Positions 27,730-40,158 of a stretch of 64,000 nt of DNA are shown here, piece by piece. The notes beneath the pieces are model-generated. The model saw only the letters and a list, made by a program, of their open reading frames with translations, was not told the DNA's origin and ran no database searches. The stretch spans positions 6,087 to 70,086 of the forward strand of contig JAKAWT010000001.1 in assembly GCA_021816845.1 (NCBI GenBank), read 5' to 3'. The stretch comes from a bacterium. GTDB taxonomy: Bacteria; Patescibacteriota; Dojkabacteria; JAKAPS01; JAJZLI01. Position numbers and translations under genes: made by a program. Within the stretch, counting starts at the first letter, position 1. Each line of letters starts with the position of its first letter.

Positions 27730-28101
27730 CTAGCCATCCTGGCGAATACCTCCATTACGTTGGTCAAACTTATGTATTTGTGTTTCCACAAATGCCATTA
27801 GGACTACTACTAACGCAAAAAGTATTTCTCTTGGAGTAAACAAAAACCAAACTTGCAGGAAGATTCCAAATGAGAATGGTAATGCATACTGAATGAGAAA
27901 CCTTTTGTTTCCACCTTTCATAAATACCGTAAAAACAAGGATTAGAATCATAAAAACCAAAGAGTCATTTACTCCCAAAACAAATGCTTTAGCAATATGT
28001 TCTGTTATATAAAAGACAATCCCAGGGATCAGTGTTCCAAAAAGTGCTATAGATAGTACAATAAGAATAGAACGAATATTGCCAAGACGACGCGAGCTCA
28101 T
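27730..28101 (-). CDS. small integral membrane protein (4 TM), unknown function
   Basis: 123 aa, hydrophobic, SD AAAGGGG 5-6 nt upstream; lies downstream of the hammerhead motif; GC-elevated. Confidence 0.45.
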   Translation of the reverse strand: MSSRRLGNIRSILIVLSIALFGTLIPGIVFYITEHIAKAFVLGVNDSLVFMILILVFTVFMKGGNKRFLIQYALPFSFGIFLQVWFLFTPREILFALVVVLMAFVETQIHKFDQRNGGIRQDG

Positions 28102-28234
28102 AAAAACCCCTTTCTTATGACAACCTAAGACCTAGAGAATATCCAGGTGTTCGGCATGTCTTGTAAACGTGCTTTTGGATTTTATCATAAAAAATACTAT
28201 AAGGCAATTTATGTAAATCACTTTTAGGCTATAA

Positions 28235-28287
28235 TTCTCTTTCGTCATTTTTGACTCATCAGATCAAGTACACACTTGATGAGAGAA
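28235..28287 (-). ncRNA. hammerhead ribozyme motif, type III topology (open stem III)
   Basis: Minus-strand RNA 5'-UUCUCUC|AUCAAGU-GUGU-ACUUGAU-CUGAUGA-GUCA-AAAA-UGAC-GAA-AGAGAA-3'. Stem I 7 bp; conserved CUGAUGA core; stem II 4 bp with G10.1-C11.1; G12-A13-A14; stem III 6 bp AGAGAA/UUCUCU; cleavage triplet CUC with predicted cut after + position 28281. Confidence 0.6.
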
Positions 28288-28288
28288 G

Positions 28289-28336
28289 GACAAACCTTAA
28301 GTTTTTAATTTTTTAGATTAAAAATTAAGGTCTGTC
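28289..28336 (-). terminator. long imperfect hairpin (about 17 bp) just after the 28354..29475 stop and just 5' of the hammerhead motif
   Basis: GACAAACCTTAAGTTTTTAAT / ATTAAAAATTAAGGTCTGTC inverted repeat with one mismatch and one G.U pair. Confidence 0.4.
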
Positions 28337-28353
28337 CAATCCCGGCTTAGTTC

Positions 28354-29475
28354 TCAGAAATTTCTCTGTATGATAGTTTCTCCTTTCTTTCCTAGAGGAT
28401 TAAATCCAGTATCAGTATTTGGATTGTATCCAGGTAGCAGCTGGTTGAATGGGATATCCCAAATATATATGCCTTTAACAAAAGACAGACTTCTGAGTGA
28501 AGTAAATGCAGCATCATAATAGTCTGCTTGAGCAGAAGAACTATATATACCAGTGCTACTTGATACCCATGGTTTGCTATAAGATCCCTCCTGTGAAGCT
28601 GCTCCAATTTCTGTTACCACTATAGGCATATTATACTGTTTGTATGCCTGCTCAAGTGCTGACAAATAGGGGCTCCAAGAAGATATCATATCTGTAAGGC
28701 TCGGACCTTGTACTGGCACAAATAGATCTGTACTTATGAAATTGAGTTTATTCCAAAATTGTACATTACTAGATACCAATTGTGGCCACCAATTACTAGA
28801 ATAGGTTATCTCCCCACTAAAAACACTTCTAACCTTTTGTATAAGAGTATCCCAATACCCTGTATACTGCTCCATGGAATTTAGTTCAGCACCTACTGTA
28901 AGTATGCTCCCTTGAGCACTTTGTAGTAACATCGCATAACGAACAATCATATTTGTGTATGATTGAAACCAACTTGAGATATCCTGAGGTTTTATTATAC
29001 CTCTCCAGCCATCACCTCCTCCCTTGAGATTCTTTTGATCCAATATTGGCCTTAGATTAGTACTCAGACCAAAACTGTGTGCTGTTTCCAGTATATCCAT
29101 GAGCTCCAGACTAGTAGGAGTGGATTCACCTGTATACACGCTTGATGCATACAAGTTATCCATGTAGAAAGGGAAATTGATAGATATACTGTTTACTCCA
29201 ATGCTCTTAAGATGAGTAAACAGACTACTAGAAAGTCCTTTTATATCAGGATAGTTCCCGTATAGAAGAATATCAATGCCCTTTTGATAGGATACCTGTA
29301 TTGGTAGTTCTGGTGTCTTGGGACTTGTTACTGGTTTTGGTGTTGTAGTTTTACCTTTTCCCTGGCTTGTTATTTTAATTGTATTTGTAGTTGTTGCACA
29401 TCCTGAAAGAATTGATGCAAAAAGGACAAATACTAACAACCCTCCTATCTTAGATCCTTTTTTGTATGACATCAA
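28354..29475 (-). CDS. lipoprotein glycoside hydrolase (TIM-barrel, clan GH-A-like; GH5/GH113-like)
   Basis: Signal peptide plus lipobox LSGC; Thr/Pro-rich linker; candidate catalytic residues GAELNSME and VVTEIGA. Confidence 0.5.
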   Translation of the reverse strand: MMSYKKGSKIGGLLVFVLFASILSGCATTTNTIKITSQGKGKTTTPKPVTSPKTPELPIQVSYQKGIDILLYGNYPDIKGLSSSLFTHLKSIGVNSISINFPFYMDNLYASSVYTGESTPTSLELMDILETAHSFGLSTNLRPILDQKNLKGGGDGWRGIIKPQDISSWFQSYTNMIVRYAMLLQSAQGSILTVGAELNSMEQYTGYWDTLIQKVRSVFSGEITYSSNWWPQLVSSNVQFWNKLNFISTDLFVPVQGPSLTDMISSWSPYLSALEQAYKQYNMPIVVTEIGAASQEGSYSKPWVSSSTGIYSSSAQADYYDAAFTSLRSLSFVKGIYIWDIPFNQLLPGYNPNTDTGFNPLGKKGETIIQRNF

Positions 29476-30859
29476 ACCCTTCCTTACGCAGTAGGAACTC
29501 TATAAGACCTAGAAGAGACGTTATTGATTCCACTACTGGAATCAGGAATACTCCTGGTATAGCTACTGCCATATGAAGATACTTCTTTAAAGTACCTCCT
29601 TTCTCTGATACACCTAGATTGATTTTAACACCTTCCATATAGCTCCATATTTGAAAAGCCATATTGAAACTCCAAAGTAAAACAATGCCTTTGAAGACAG
29701 GTGCAGTATCTTGACCAATCAGTAACCCTATAAGGATTACAACCCAAACGTTCTGTGCAAAACCAACGAGCCATATAAAGACTGCATAGGATAAAACCTT
29801 TTTGTCTCTAAGATGGATGGATTTATCTGAAATGAGATGTATCAGTCCAGAAGACCACCTCCGACGTTGCTTTATTAGGTCTTTCACACTTGATGGAGAT
29901 GATCCATAAGTTGCACTATTTAAGAATCCAGATTTACCAGGATATTTCTTTGCAAAGAAAAGTGCAAAATAAGCATCCTCTACTTTAACTTTTTTTCCGA
30001 AATCCCAACCTATTGTTTCTTCTATATCACTTCTTAGGAGTAGATGTTCCCCGTGTAATCCCATCCTGGGAGTTCCACCACCTGTGAAAAAATAGAATTT
30101 TGATAGATCATCAATCGGTCTAATTGAATCAGCGAATCTACTTATTGCACTATTTGAACGCTCATACGGAAAGGTCAGTACTCCTTGTGCTAGATAAAAT
30201 TCATTGCCTTTTTTGGAAATGAATTCTGCTATTGATGATATTGTGTCAGACCTTACAGAAGTATCATCATCAAGATGATACACCCAAGTGTTTGCACAGT
30301 TTTCTCCATCAATAGCTCTAACCATCATTGCATATTGATTAGCTCTCGCTTTGTACTTAGTACCATTAGGAGTAGAGTAATCATGAGGAACTACAAGAAT
30401 CCTTACCAAATTACTAGATCCATAGATCTTCTGTAGTATTGAGATACCTTCCGAGCCTTCGTCAACGACAACGTCTATTCTGAAATTTACCATATTGAAT
30501 GGAGCAAATTCCAGAACTGAATCTATCACCCTTTTTAAAGCTGGAATTACATTTGATCTTGCGACAGACGGGACTATAAATATTACTTGATTATTTATAG
30601 TTTCACAGAACCTAGATGGAACTACTTTATACCTCTTTAGGGCTACTATTCCTAAGAATGATATAACCGCTAGTGGAACATTCAAACTCCAAATTAAGGT
30701 TACATACCAATTAAGGGCCTGATATCTAGAACCACCAGTGATATACCAAGAGATTGCACCAAGTATTGTAAAAACTAATAGAAACCTCCAAATATTGACA
30801 TTGAATATACTACGCTTCCTACGACCAGATTCCCCAATATATATTGGAACTGTAGACAA
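29450..30859 (-). CDS. processive family-2 glycosyltransferase (PgaC/IcaA/NodC/cellulose synthase-like polysaccharide synthase)
   Basis: 2 N-terminal and about 4 C-terminal TM helices; central GT-A domain with DDD motifs and a Q-R-R-R-W (QxxRW) motif (IKQRRRWSSG). Confidence 0.7.
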   Translation of the reverse strand: MSTVPIYIGESGRRKRSIFNVNIWRFLLVFTILGAISWYITGGSRYQALNWYVTLIWSLNVPLAVISFLGIVALKRYKVVPSRFCETINNQVIFIVPSVARSNVIPALKRVIDSVLEFAPFNMVNFRIDVVVDEGSEGISILQKIYGSSNLVRILVVPHDYSTPNGTKYKARANQYAMMVRAIDGENCANTWVYHLDDDTSVRSDTISSIAEFISKKGNEFYLAQGVLTFPYERSNSAISRFADSIRPIDDLSKFYFFTGGGTPRMGLHGEHLLLRSDIEETIGWDFGKKVKVEDAYFALFFAKKYPGKSGFLNSATYGSSPSSVKDLIKQRRRWSSGLIHLISDKSIHLRDKKVLSYAVFIWLVGFAQNVWVVILIGLLIGQDTAPVFKGIVLLWSFNMAFQIWSYMEGVKINLGVSEKGGTLKKYLHMAVAIPGVFLIPVVESITSLLGLIEFLLRKEGFDVIQKRI

Positions 30860-31198
30860 CTGTGACTTATCCTCCTTTTAGTTGTAAAAGAACTTGCCGG
30901 ATTATACGTGTACCAATACTACTAACATTACTGTCATTTATATATGGTATACACAAAGTGCATTGTACTAAAAAATAAATTTATAATCAAATGTATAGTG
31001 TCTACATAAGTTGAGATACTAACCTTTTTTTTAAAACATTAGATTTTTTATACAATAATTAAATCCTATAGTGTAATAGGGAATAGGGTATGATTTTAAA
31101 AGCAGGGAGGGTTTATCAACTACATAAATTATACAAAAGAACAATATAAAATAACTGAGTATAATATTATTAGTGGGGGATAGGGTAGGGAGCCATAA

Positions 31199-40024: not shown

Positions 40025-40098
40025 TTGACCTTGGCGGGATTCGAACCCGCGATCTTTAGGATGAGAACCTAATATCCTAGACCACTAGACGACAAGGC
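40025..40098 (-). tRNA. tRNA-Glu (anticodon CUC)
   Basis: Minus-strand GGCCUUG acceptor stem (G2.U71), D-arm UCGUCUAGUGGUCUAGGAU, anticodon stem UUAGG/CCUAA with loop UUCUCAU, T-arm GCGGGUUCGAAUCCCGC, discriminator A, no encoded CCA. Confidence 0.8.
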
Positions 40099-40158
40099 CA
40101 TATTGAAGATTATATATTAAGAATAATGTTTTGTGAAATCAATTGGTATTCAATATTC

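What the first reader, a model, noticed from the sequence alone, without database searches (positions are those of the whole stretch)
28235..28287. Complete type III hammerhead ribozyme motif between a glycoside hydrolase gene and a small membrane-protein gene
The minus-strand RNA 5'-UUCUCUC^AUCAAGU-GUGU-ACUUGAU-CUGAUGA-GUCA-AAAA-UGAC-GAA-AGAGAA-3' carries all 11 invariant hammerhead core nucleotides (CUGAUGA and GAA) in the correct order. It also has three helices in the correct topology: stem I 7 bp hairpin, stem II 4 bp starting with the conserved G10.1-C11.1 pair, and stem III 6 bp open (AGAGAA/UUCUCU). The cleavage triplet is a legal NUH (CUC), with the predicted cut after + position 28281. 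A 17-bp hairpin (28289-28336) abuts its 5' side. If active, it would split the polycistronic GT2-GH-small-TM transcript. The downstream fragment would then carry a 5'-OH just upstream of a good SD (AAAGGGG) for the small membrane protein. Self-cleaving ribozymes embedded between genes of a polysaccharide synthase/hydrolase module in a reduced genome would be unusual.
Basis: seen in the sequence. Interest (0 to 1): 0.85.

Follow-up and report, generated by a model that had tools for sequence, protein, structure and literature searches.

The report
Conserved hammerhead ribozyme ending a glycan-gene cassette
A textbook-shaped self-cutting RNA (a type III hammerhead ribozyme), fused to a long hairpin, sits at the very end of a two-gene sugar-polymer cassette in an ultra-small (Patescibacteria/CPR) bacterium, and probably trims that cassette's mRNA to a hairpin-protected end; it is a genuine new example of a known ribozyme class that the standard Rfam model misses.

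Summary
The motif is real and sits exactly where reported: minus strand 28287..28235, with predicted cleavage between C28281 and A28280. Every hammerhead core nucleotide is present, and so are the three helices.

Rfam gives only 16.9 bits against a gathering score of 48.5. That is not a refutation, because Rfam misses the whole family this element belongs to.

Comparative evidence decides the case:
- The hairpin+hammerhead unit follows the GH113 stop codon in five diverged cassettes, where GH113 protein identity is 51-81%.
- The hammerhead stays 91-100% identical and its few changes preserve the structure. The downstream DNA is unrelated.
- It belongs to a large family of compact, sTRSV-like type III hammerheads. 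I collected 167 unique copies from Patescibacteria and phage contigs, and all three stems covary.
- A family model built without the window's lineage scores the window element at 74.6 bits.

A near-identical genome lacks the whole unit (promoter, GT2, GH113, hairpin, hammerhead), so the ribozyme is the 3' end of a self-contained transcription unit.

Across the family, a hairpin ends 5-7 nt before the cut site in 47% of copies, against 7% of control positions. No U-tract follows it.

Best reading: ribozyme-made, hairpin-capped mRNA 3' ends that insulate the cassette from downstream genes. It is a new member of a known kind. Cleavage itself is untested.

The parts
28235..28287 (-). Type III hammerhead ribozyme, 53 nt. 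Stem III 5' strand 28287-28282; C17 at 28281, with the cut between 28281 and 28280; stem I hairpin 28280-28263 (7 bp, loop GUGU); core CUGAUGA 28262-28256; stem II hairpin 28255-28244 (GUCA-AAAA-UGAC); GAA 28243-28241; stem III 3' strand 28240-28235.
   Evidence: Sequence. Minimum-free-energy fold. RNAalifold on 5 orthologs. Leave-out family model R2: 74.6 bits, E 2.5e-20. Covariation in the family. 91-100% identity across cassettes with 51-81% GH113 protein identity.
28288..28337 (-). Hairpin of 21 bp with one bulge and a 7-nt loop. It starts 17 nt after the GH113 stop codon and abuts stem III with no spacer. After cleavage it would lie 7 nt from the new 3' end.
   Evidence: Fold. It is conserved, with compensatory changes, in L004, L005, L006, L008 and L022. 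Family-wide enrichment of an abutting hairpin.
28354..29475 (-). GH113-family glycoside hydrolase gene (373 aa, lipoprotein-like N-terminus). It is the last gene of the cassette.
   Evidence: ORF. Pfam PF22612 on the identical protein.
29450..30859 (-). Membrane GT2 glycosyltransferase gene (469 aa). It overlaps the GH113 gene by 26 nt.
   Evidence: ORF. Pfam Glyco_trans_2_3, E 3.4e-17.
30962..30990 (-). Promoter-like site TTGATT-17-TACAAT at the first bases of the cassette-specific DNA.
   Evidence: Consensus scan (not significant on its own). It is conserved in L004 and absent from the cassette-less L001.
28212..30990 (-). Presence/absence cassette of about 2.78 kb: promoter-like site, GT2, GH113, hairpin, hammerhead and about 25 nt. 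TACA occurs at both junctions.
   Evidence: Window versus L001 (GCA_027425355.1): the flanks are identical and the cassette is missing.
28179..28207 (-). Promoter-like site TTGCCT-17-TAAAAT (with TG) between the ribozyme and the 123-aa membrane-protein gene. It lies outside the cassette.
   Evidence: Consensus scan. It is retained in L001 and L004.
27730..28101 (-). 123-aa membrane-protein gene with no Pfam family, the downstream neighbour in this lineage only.
   Evidence: ORF. No Pfam hit. The downstream neighbours differ in L005, L006, L008 and L022.

Best explanation
The element is a functional, compact, sTRSV-like type III hammerhead ribozyme. It forms the 3' boundary of a self-contained transcription unit: promoter, GT2, GH113, hairpin, hammerhead.

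Proposed mechanism. When RNA polymerase has transcribed past position 28235, the RNA folds into the three-way junction and cuts itself between C28281 and A28280.
- The upstream product is the GT2-GH113 mRNA. It ends in a 21-bp hairpin followed by only 7 nt and a 2',3'-cyclic phosphate. This is a terminator-like, exonuclease-resistant 3' end, made without a U-tract and without polymerase termination.
- The downstream product starts with a 5'-OH that is base-paired in the stem I hairpin. It is thereby physically uncoupled from the cassette mRNA, so the stability and expression of downstream genes do not depend on the cassette transcript. This is insulation.
- The short stem III (6 bp) lets the products separate.

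What is shown: the motif, its conservation, covariation, family membership, the position of the hairpin, and the cassette boundaries.

What is inferred: self-cleavage in vivo, protection of the two new ends, and the insulating role.
For: Identity as a hammerhead:
- All core nucleotides are present and all core-adjacent pairs are standard.
- The leave-out family model gives 74.6 bits.
- Family covariation score is 0.79 against 0.24 in shuffles, with 95.7% of cells paired against 29-42% in the slid controls. Both-side changes occur in 5 of 6 pairs of stem III, 6 of 7 of stem I and 3 of 4 of stem II.
- In a viral scan that left all stems free, 91 of 91 unique hits had a perfect stem I and stem II, and 87 of 91 had a stem III of at least 4 bp.

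Selection in this lineage:
- The hammerhead is 90.6-100% identical where GH113 DNA is 61-83% identical and the next 60 nt are 44-59% identical (73% in the syntenic L004).
- The substitutions are C-G to U-A at 16.4/15.4 and U-A to U-G in stem I.

Boundary role:
- Similarity between cassettes stops at the ribozyme's 3' end.
- A near-identical genome lacks exactly the promoter-to-hammerhead block.
- The downstream gene keeps its own promoter-like site.

Hairpin role, from 167 unique family members:
- A hairpin of at least 8 bp ends 0-2 nt before stem III in 46.7% of copies against 7.2% of intergenic control positions (odds ratio 11, p 4e-39).
- Its outer pair lies 5-7 nt before the cut site.
- No U-tract follows it: 2.8 T in 8 nt, the same with or without a hairpin.
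- The median distance from the upstream stop codon to the hammerhead is 40 nt, and 132 of 157 upstream ORFs are co-oriented.

Precedent:
- Bacterial hammerheads flanking genes cleave in vitro and in E. coli (PMC3088659).
- The sTRSV ribozyme is used to make defined RNA 3' ends (PMC9519601).
- The same ribozyme is the core of the RiboJ insulator (PMC6206723).
Against: - There is no experimental or transcript-end evidence for cleavage here.
- Rfam RF00008 scores only 16.9 bits.
- In a 261-nt context the predicted minimum-free-energy fold does not keep stem III, so folding may depend on tertiary contacts or on co-transcriptional order.
- Half of the family members lack an abutting hairpin, so the hairpin is not obligatory.
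- In 48% of family members the next co-oriented gene starts within 60 nt. This fits intercistronic processing of an operon at least as well as pure 3'-end formation.
- The family was retrieved with patterns derived from this element, so the census is biased towards look-alikes.
- The ORF calls in my scripts are crude.
Confidence: 0.6

Rival explanations
1. Operon-splitting mainly for the benefit of the downstream gene. The GT2-GH113-TM transcript is polycistronic. Cleavage exists chiefly to release a downstream mRNA that has a 5'-OH and a structured 5' end, which tunes its stability or translation.
For: - All genes here are co-oriented.
- In L006, L008 and L022 the next gene starts only 33-50 nt after the ribozyme.
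- Family-wide, 48% of co-oriented downstream starts lie within 60 nt.
- In arrays, single small genes sit between successive hammerheads.
- The same idea was proposed for prophage hammerheads (PMC3088659, PMC6765202).
Against: - In this window a promoter-like site lies between the ribozyme and the TM gene, and it is kept in the cassette-less genome.
- The ribozyme travels with the upstream cassette while the downstream gene changes.
- The hairpin is on the upstream side.
Confidence: 0.2
2. The hairpin is an intrinsic, or factor-dependent, terminator and does the real work. The hammerhead is only a fail-safe that cuts read-through transcripts at nearly the same place.
For: - The hairpin follows the stop codon by 17 nt, as terminators do.
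- Cleavage would give almost the same 3' end as termination at the hairpin.
- In L006 the 8 nt after the hairpin contain 5 T.
Against: - No U-tract follows the hairpin here (UUCUCUCA), and the terminator scan does not call it.
- Family-wide, the T content after the hairpin is 2.8 of 8 and is no higher than in copies without a hairpin.
- If termination were efficient, the ribozyme would rarely be transcribed, yet it is under strong purifying selection.
Confidence: 0.12
3. The ribozyme serves the mobility or RNA life cycle of the cassette, or of a mobile element, for example excision or circularisation of an RNA intermediate.
For: - The cassette is a presence/absence polymorphism with TACA at both junctions, and it occurs in different genomic contexts.
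- Many family members are in phage contigs and in arrays next to small HTH-type genes.
- Two 366-377-nt IMG/VR records carry a similar hammerhead.
Against: - There is only one hammerhead in the 64-kb window; the next best model hit scores 12.3 bits. No RNA unit can therefore be excised.
- No reverse transcriptase, integrase or transposase lies in the cassette.
- A more distant relative, L004, has the cassette at the same site, so a deletion in L001 is the simpler history.
Confidence: 0.04
4. A chance match or a decayed, inactive relic.
For: - Rfam is sub-threshold.
- The fold z-score is only -1.2.
- The genome is AT-rich, and random sequences occasionally reach 16 stem pairs with a perfect core.
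Against: - The element is conserved at 91-100% across cassettes whose proteins are 51-81% identical, and only structure-preserving changes occur.
- The core is intact.
- It scores 74.6 bits against a model built from unrelated copies.
Confidence: 0.03

Closest known systems
[quoted passage not shown]
   Same: The core and architecture are the same. sTRSV reads GUC|ACCGGA-UGUGCUU-UCCGGU-CUGAUGA-GUCC-GUGA-GGAC-GAAAC (sequence as printed in PMC9519601). The window reads CUC|AUCAAG-UGUGUA-CUUGAU-CUGAUGA-GUCA-AAAA-UGAC-GAAAG. Both have a 6-bp variable stem I closed by a UGUG-type loop, a 4-bp stem II with a 4-nt purine-rich loop, and an open stem III.
   Different: The window element is DNA-encoded in a bacterial chromosome, not part of a circular satellite RNA. 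Loop 1 has 6 nt (UGUGUR) rather than 7. Loop 2 is RAAA rather than GUGA. The cleavage triplet is CUC rather than GUC. A hairpin is fused to the 5' side. It scores far below the RF00008 gathering score.
Bacterial and prophage hammerheads that flank genes (Perreault et al. 2011, PMC3088659)
   Same: These are also genome-encoded hammerheads lying between co-oriented genes. Arrays flank single genes or short gene blocks, as seen here in Saccharibacteria contigs. The proposed role is processing of long transcripts. Cleavage has been shown for A. tumefaciens, A. caulinodans and C. scindens examples.
   Different: This copy is solitary and in a housekeeping neighbourhood (SecA, SpoU methylase, seryl-tRNA synthetase) of a Patescibacteria genome. 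It is tied to a GT2-GH113 cassette rather than to a prophage. I did not find the abutting upstream hairpin mentioned in that paper's text. My searches that paired hammerhead with Patescibacteria, with candidate phyla radiation, or with Saccharibacteria/TM7 found no paper connecting them.
RiboJ synthetic insulator (sTRSV hammerhead plus a 23-nt hairpin; PMC6206723)
   Same: Both combine a compact type III hammerhead with a helper hairpin. The combination uncouples a gene's mRNA from neighbouring transcribed sequence and leaves a structured end on a product.
   Different: In RiboJ the hairpin is downstream of the ribozyme and serves the downstream gene. Here the hairpin is upstream and would cap the 3' end of the upstream mRNA. 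This element is natural rather than engineered.
Intrinsic terminators and intercistronic stabiliser hairpins
   Same: The end result is the same: an mRNA ending in a stable hairpin plus a few nucleotides, placed 20-70 nt after a stop codon.
   Different: There is no U-tract. The 3' end would be made by RNA self-cleavage and would carry a 2',3'-cyclic phosphate. It would not be made by polymerase release or by a protein RNase.

Membership tests
Hammerhead ribozyme (type III) | Conserved catalytic core: C3 U4 G5 A6 N7 G8 A9 between stems I and II, and G12 A13 A14 between stems II and III. | tested here: met
   CUGAUGA at 28262-28256 and GAA at 28243-28241. Both are invariant in all cassette orthologs.
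Hammerhead ribozyme (type III) | Three helices around the core. Stems I and II are closed by loops and stem III is open (type III). The helices are supported by covariation. | tested here: met
   The minimum-free-energy fold and the RNAalifold consensus both give this structure. In the family, 14 of 17 pairs show both-side changes, 95.7% of cells are paired, and the covariation score is 0.789 against 0.236 in shuffles.
Hammerhead ribozyme (type III) | Cleavage site N-U-H: an A15.1-U16.1 pair, position 17 not G, and standard pairs directly next to the core (the acceptance rule in PMC3088659). | tested here: met
   U28282-A28240, C17 at 28281, A1.1-U2.1 and G10.1-C11.1. In the family, H17 is C, A or U and never G, though my filter excluded G.
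Hammerhead ribozyme (type III) | A tertiary contact between stems I and II (loop-loop), needed for fast cleavage at physiological Mg2+. | tested here: inconclusive
   Loop 1 is conserved as UGUGUR and loop 2 as RAAA in copies retrieved without constraining loop 1. These resemble sTRSV's UGUGCUU and GUGA. No 3D test was possible.
Hammerhead ribozyme (type III) | Score at or above the Rfam RF00008 gathering threshold of 48.5 bits. | tested here: not met
   16.9 bits, E 0.47, with only a local match to model positions 9-47. Sibling copies also fail: 45.6, 36.7 and 22.5 bits in L020, and none reported in 18 Patescibacteria loci or 15 viral loci. The threshold reflects how the model was built. It is not a defining biochemical feature.
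Hammerhead ribozyme (type III) | Site-specific self-cleavage that gives 2',3'-cyclic phosphate and 5'-OH ends. | not testable with these tools
   This needs in vitro transcription or mapping of transcript ends.
Compact sTRSV-like type III hammerhead family of phages and Patescibacteria (defined here) | Fixed geometry: 6 variable bp plus a U-R pair plus a GUGU loop in stem I, a 4-bp stem II with an NAAA loop, and a 4-7-bp stem III. | tested here: met
   Model R2, built from 48 copies that exclude the window and its orthologs, gives 74.6 bits and E 2.5e-20 over all 53 positions. The next hit in the window scores 12.3 bits. Caveat: the training copies were found with a pattern taken from the window's core and stem II.
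Intrinsic (Rho-independent) terminator | A GC-rich hairpin followed directly by a U-tract. | tested here: not met
   The hairpin is followed by UUCUCUCA and is not called by the terminator scan. There is no U enrichment after abutting hairpins in the family.

The most novel reading that the evidence does not exclude
Hairpin-plus-hammerhead modules are a widespread way of making mRNA 3' ends and cutting between cistrons in phages and ultra-small (Patescibacteria/CPR) bacteria. They need no protein and no terminator. The ribozyme cuts 5-7 nt after a stable hairpin. The upstream mRNA then gets a terminator-like protected end and the downstream mRNA gets a structured 5'-OH end. This would be a natural counterpart of synthetic ribozyme insulators. 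It would also give a concrete function to a large group of 'orphan' bacterial hammerheads.
Probability: 0.35. Interest if true: 0.65.

Novelty: new member of a known kind. Interest (0 to 1): 0.5.

Why it matters
The biological role of genome-encoded bacterial hammerheads is still described as open (PMC6765202). This locus is an unusually clean case for four reasons:
- It is a single ribozyme, not a prophage array.
- It is fixed to the 3' end of a defined two-gene exopolysaccharide-type cassette across deep divergence.
- A natural cassette-less sister genome serves as a control.
- The ribozyme sits in a precise geometric relation to a hairpin.

Together these features suggest a testable function: ribozyme-made, hairpin-capped 3' ends.

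The locus also shows that Rfam's Hammerhead_3 threshold misses a whole compact family that is common in phage contigs and Patescibacteria. Ribozyme censuses of these genomes are therefore underestimates.

Tried and rejected
- Rfam at gathering threshold over the window returned only a tRNA. Rfam at a permissive E-value returned a weak local Hammerhead_3 hit plus chance microRNA and snoRNA hits on the hairpin. I rejected this as a test because the sibling copies fail it too.
- Thermodynamic z-scores were uninformative for the 61-nt element. The 261-nt fold does not keep stem III.
- The hairpin as an intrinsic terminator was rejected because no U-tract follows it.
- My first stems-free viral pattern returned nothing because I miscounted the spacer lengths. 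The corrected pattern returned more than 120 loci.
- BLAST of the 53-mer against GenBank phages gave only chance-level hits.
- Literature searches pairing hammerhead with Patescibacteria, CPR, or Saccharibacteria/TM7 found no paper connecting them.
- The sequence dataset of Perreault 2011 is not held as a supplement. I therefore could not check whether this sub-family is already in their alignment.
- ARAGORN found no tmRNA at the 65-nt tmRNA-like hits.
- The GH113 homolog at 34% identity, in a GC-rich organism, has no ribozyme downstream. The association is therefore limited to the Patescibacteria cassette clade.
- A second ribozyme bounding the cassette was looked for and not found.

Full report
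**1. Observation**

On the minus strand, 28287..28235 reads UUCUCU-C-AUCAAGU-GUGU-ACUUGAU-CUGAUGA-GUCA-AAAA-UGAC-GAA-AGAGAA. This matches a type III hammerhead at every constrained position:
- C3-A9 is CUGAUGA, and G12-A14 is GAA.
- The A15.1-U16.1 pair, C17, A1.1-U2.1 and G10.1-C11.1 are all present.
- Stems I, II and III have 7, 4 and 6 bp.

The predicted scissile bond lies between 28281 and 28280. The 61-nt minimum-free-energy structure is exactly this three-way junction, but its z-score is only -1.2.

My own descriptor finds it as the sole type III candidate in the window, which has 29.7% GC. In 535 random sequences with the same dinucleotide statistics, none reached 17 stem pairs with a perfect core and one reached 16. 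Chance is therefore about 0.002-0.005 per window or less. That is low, but not conclusive for a scan of many windows.

The neighbouring hairpin is 28337..28288, with 21 pairs, one bulge and a 7-nt loop. It begins 17 nt after the GH113 stop codon and touches stem III with no spacer.

**2. Rfam**

At gathering thresholds the window yields only a tRNA, at 40026-40099. At a permissive E-value, RF00008 Hammerhead_3 gives a local match of 16.9 bits against a gathering score of 48.5.

It is not one. Dozens of sibling ribozymes found later are also missed at gathering:
- None is reported in 18 Patescibacteria loci that contain more than 30 copies.
- Three copies in L020 score 45.6, 36.7 and 22.5 bits.
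- None is reported in 15 viral loci.

The Rfam model expects a longer loop 2 and a GUC/GAAAC stem III, so AT-rich compact copies are penalised.

**3. Orthologous loci**

The 123-aa downstream protein and the GH113 protein led to related contigs. The hairpin+hammerhead unit follows the GH113 stop codon by 62-69 nt in each of these loci:

| Locus | GH113 protein identity | Context |
|---|---|---|
| L004 | 81% | same SecA ... SpoU synteny |
| L005 | 71% | followed by a DUF87/TrwB-type ATPase gene |
| L008 | 58% | different downstream gene |
| L006, L007, L022 | 51% | different downstream genes |

The 53-nt ribozyme is 90.6-100% identical to the window's. GH113 DNA is 61-83% identical. The 60 nt after the ribozyme are 44-59% identical, apart from the syntenic L004.

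The few substitutions preserve the structure. They are C16.4-G15.4 to U-A, and U-A to U-G in stem I. The hairpin keeps its pairing through compensatory changes. RNAalifold on the five orthologs returns the hairpin plus the hammerhead junction. A 34%-identical GH113 gene in a GC-rich organism has no ribozyme downstream.

**4. The cassette**

L001 (GCA_027425355.1) is identical to the window in both flanks. It goes straight from the SecA intergenic region to the promoter-like region of the 123-aa gene.

The missing block is about 30990..28212. It starts at a promoter-like TTGATT-17-TACAAT site and contains the overlapping GT2 and GH113 genes (Pfam Glyco_trans_2_3 and GH113). It ends 25 nt after the ribozyme. 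TACA occurs at both junctions.

The more distant L004 has the cassette at the same site, so a deletion in L001 is the simplest history. Between different cassettes, similarity ends at the 3' edge of the ribozyme. The ribozyme is therefore the last conserved element of a self-contained transcription unit.

The downstream 123-aa gene has its own promoter-like site, TTGCCT-17-TAAAAT at 28207..28179. That site survives in L001.

**5. The family**

*Retrieval with the core and stem II fixed.* Scanning public collections for CTGATGAGTCANNNNTGACGAAA gave:
- 2 viral loci;
- 17 genome loci, of which 13 are titled Saccharibacteria, Paceibacteria/Paceibacterota, Taylorbacteria or Patescibacteria;
- 49 metagenome loci.

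At fixed offsets, 46 of 62 unique hits have a 7-bp stem I whose last pair is U-R, closed by a GUGU loop. Loop 2 is RAAA.

*Extra copies and arrays.* A covariance model built from these hits found many further copies with other stem II sequences. They form arrays: 5 copies in 2.3 kb of L014, 4 each in L018 and L020, and 6 in L027. The arrays flank small ORFs, one of them HTH-type. This is the arrangement described for prophage hammerheads in PMC3088659.

*Retrieval with all stems free.* A second viral scan fixed only loop 1, the core, the AAA of loop 2 and CGAAA. Among 91 unique hits, all have a 7/7 stem I and a 4/4 stem II, and 87 have a stem III of at least 4 bp.

*Covariation.* On a 48-sequence alignment that excludes the window's lineage:
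- 95.7% of cells are paired, against 69% in shuffles and 29-42% in the slid controls;
- the covariation score is 0.789, against 0.236 in shuffles;
- both-side changes occur in 5 of 6 pairs of stem III, 6 of 7 of stem I and 3 of 4 of stem II.

*The window's score.* The model built from that alignment scores the window element at 74.6 bits (E 2.5e-20) over all 53 positions. The next hit in the window scores 12.3 bits.

Caveat: the family was retrieved with patterns derived from this element. It is a look-alike set, not an unbiased census.

**6. Relation to known hammerheads**

The architecture is that of the sTRSV ribozyme, GTC|ACCGGA-TGTGCTT-TCCGGT-CTGATGA-GTCC-GTGA-GGAC-GAAAC, as printed in PMC9519601. 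That paper uses the ribozyme precisely to generate defined RNA 3' ends. sTRSV is also the core of the RiboJ insulator, which is the ribozyme plus a 23-nt hairpin (PMC6206723).

Hundreds of bacterial hammerheads are known, many near prophage integrases and in gene-flanking arrays. Cleavage has been demonstrated in vitro and in E. coli (PMC3088659). Their function is still regarded as open (PMC6765202).

I found no paper linking hammerheads with Patescibacteria/CPR.

**7. The hairpin is part of the module**

Among 167 unique compact type III hammerheads in the fetched loci:
- A hairpin of at least 8 contiguous bp ends 0-2 nt before stem III in 46.7% of copies, against 7.2% of 2737 intergenic control positions (odds ratio 11, p 4e-39).
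- The positional profile rises sharply at 5-7 nt before the cut site.
- The tail left after cleavage is 5-9 nt, most often 6-7 nt. In the window it is 7 nt.
- The 8 nt after the hairpin contain 2.8 T on average, the same as in copies without a hairpin. These hairpins are therefore not canonical intrinsic terminators.
- Upstream ORFs are co-oriented in 132 of 157 cases, and the median stop-to-ribozyme distance is 40 nt. Downstream co-oriented genes start at a median of 72 nt, and 48% start within 60 nt.

**8. Mechanism**

The best-supported reading is that the ribozyme is active. It severs the cassette transcript 7 nt after the hairpin.
- The GT2-GH113 mRNA receives a hairpin-capped end with a short tail and a 2',3'-cyclic phosphate.
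- The downstream RNA receives a 5'-OH buried in stem I.

The result is a defined, protected 3' end and insulation from downstream genes.

*Shown:* the motif, its conservation, covariation, the geometry of the hairpin, and the cassette boundary.

*Inferred:* cleavage in vivo and the stabilising effects. These rest on established hammerhead chemistry, on the general preference of 3' exonucleases for single-stranded tails, and on the 5'-end dependence of bacterial mRNA decay.

*Rivals:*
- operon-splitting for the benefit of the downstream gene, which overlaps with the main reading and is more plausible in the orthologs with 33-50-nt spacers;
- hairpin as terminator with the ribozyme as back-up, disfavoured by the absence of a U-tract;
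- a mobility role, disfavoured because there is only one ribozyme and no recombinase;
- chance or relic, essentially excluded.

**9. Verdict**

This is a genuine, strongly conserved hammerhead and a new member of a known ribozyme class, in a host group where I found none reported. The proposed Rfam test is misleading. The functional picture shifts from 'splitting a three-gene operon' to 'the 3' boundary element of a two-gene cassette'. The family-wide hairpin-ribozyme geometry is the most interesting by-product and gives a testable hypothesis for orphan bacterial hammerheads.

Noticed in passing
window 28212-30990 versus L001 2880-2900: A near-identical genome (GCA_027425355.1) lacks the whole 2.78-kb GT2-GH113-hairpin-ribozyme cassette. 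TACA occurs at both junctions. This is a natural presence/absence polymorphism of an exopolysaccharide-type module.
   Followed up: yes
L020 5922-5986 (+); L014 6449-6513 (-): A 65-nt element matches both ends of the Rfam tmRNA model (60-65 bits, above gathering) but has the central ~310 nt missing. It is a tRNA-like domain with no mRNA-like part. It lies between arrayed hammerheads in Saccharibacteria contigs, 19 nt after one of them in L020. ARAGORN calls no tmRNA there. A weak permuted-tmRNA hit (25 bits) overlaps it.
   Followed up: partly
L014 5023-7303; L018 742-2250; L020 5429-6880; L027 144-1274 and 6183-7901; L021, L024, L062: Arrays of 3-6 hammerheads spaced 400-1000 nt apart occur in Saccharibacteria and other Patescibacteria contigs. 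Each interval holds one small ORF with no Pfam family, apart from one HTH_3-like ORF. The region may be a prophage or an unknown mobile region.
   Followed up: partly
L018 742-809 and 2183-2250; L027 537-604, 6183-6250, 6970-7038 and 7834-7901; L069: A variant of the same ribozyme has a long stem II (for example GUCUCCUUGCUAAGUGGCAAGAAAAGAC) and a 5-nt loop 1 (UGUGA). It is interleaved with the compact form in the same arrays.
   Followed up: no
L121 1-366; L147 1-377: Two IMG/VR 'viral contigs' of only 366-377 nt carry a similar hammerhead (AGUGGAU-GUGU-AUCCACU-CUGAUGA-GUCC-GAAA-GGAC-GAAAC). In the canonical GUA register there seems to be an extra U between stem I and C3. The size suggests viroid-like or satellite circular RNAs.
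   Followed up: no
window 30860-30960; L004 3500-3613; L022 1480-1590: The leader upstream of the GT2 start codon contains a block conserved between cassettes with 51% GH113 identity (...AGTCAGTAGTAYTGGTA...ATAATCCGGYAAGTTCTTTTACAA). It may be a regulatory 5' UTR element.
   Followed up: no
L024 270-318; L026, L027 and L062 4575-4622; L020, L077: A conserved two-hairpin sequence (AATAGTGGTAAACCYACTAGGTTCTCGATTAACCTTAAAATCG) directly precedes several Saccharibacteria hammerheads. In L027, L062 and L077 about 1 kb upstream has no ORF of 90 aa or more. This may be an unannotated non-coding RNA that ends at a ribozyme.
   Followed up: no
L007 2140 (contig end): A Logan contig ends inside the ribozyme's 3' part (…GACGAAA), just where cassette contexts diverge. 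This is probably an assembly-graph break at the cassette boundary rather than an RNA end.
   Followed up: no
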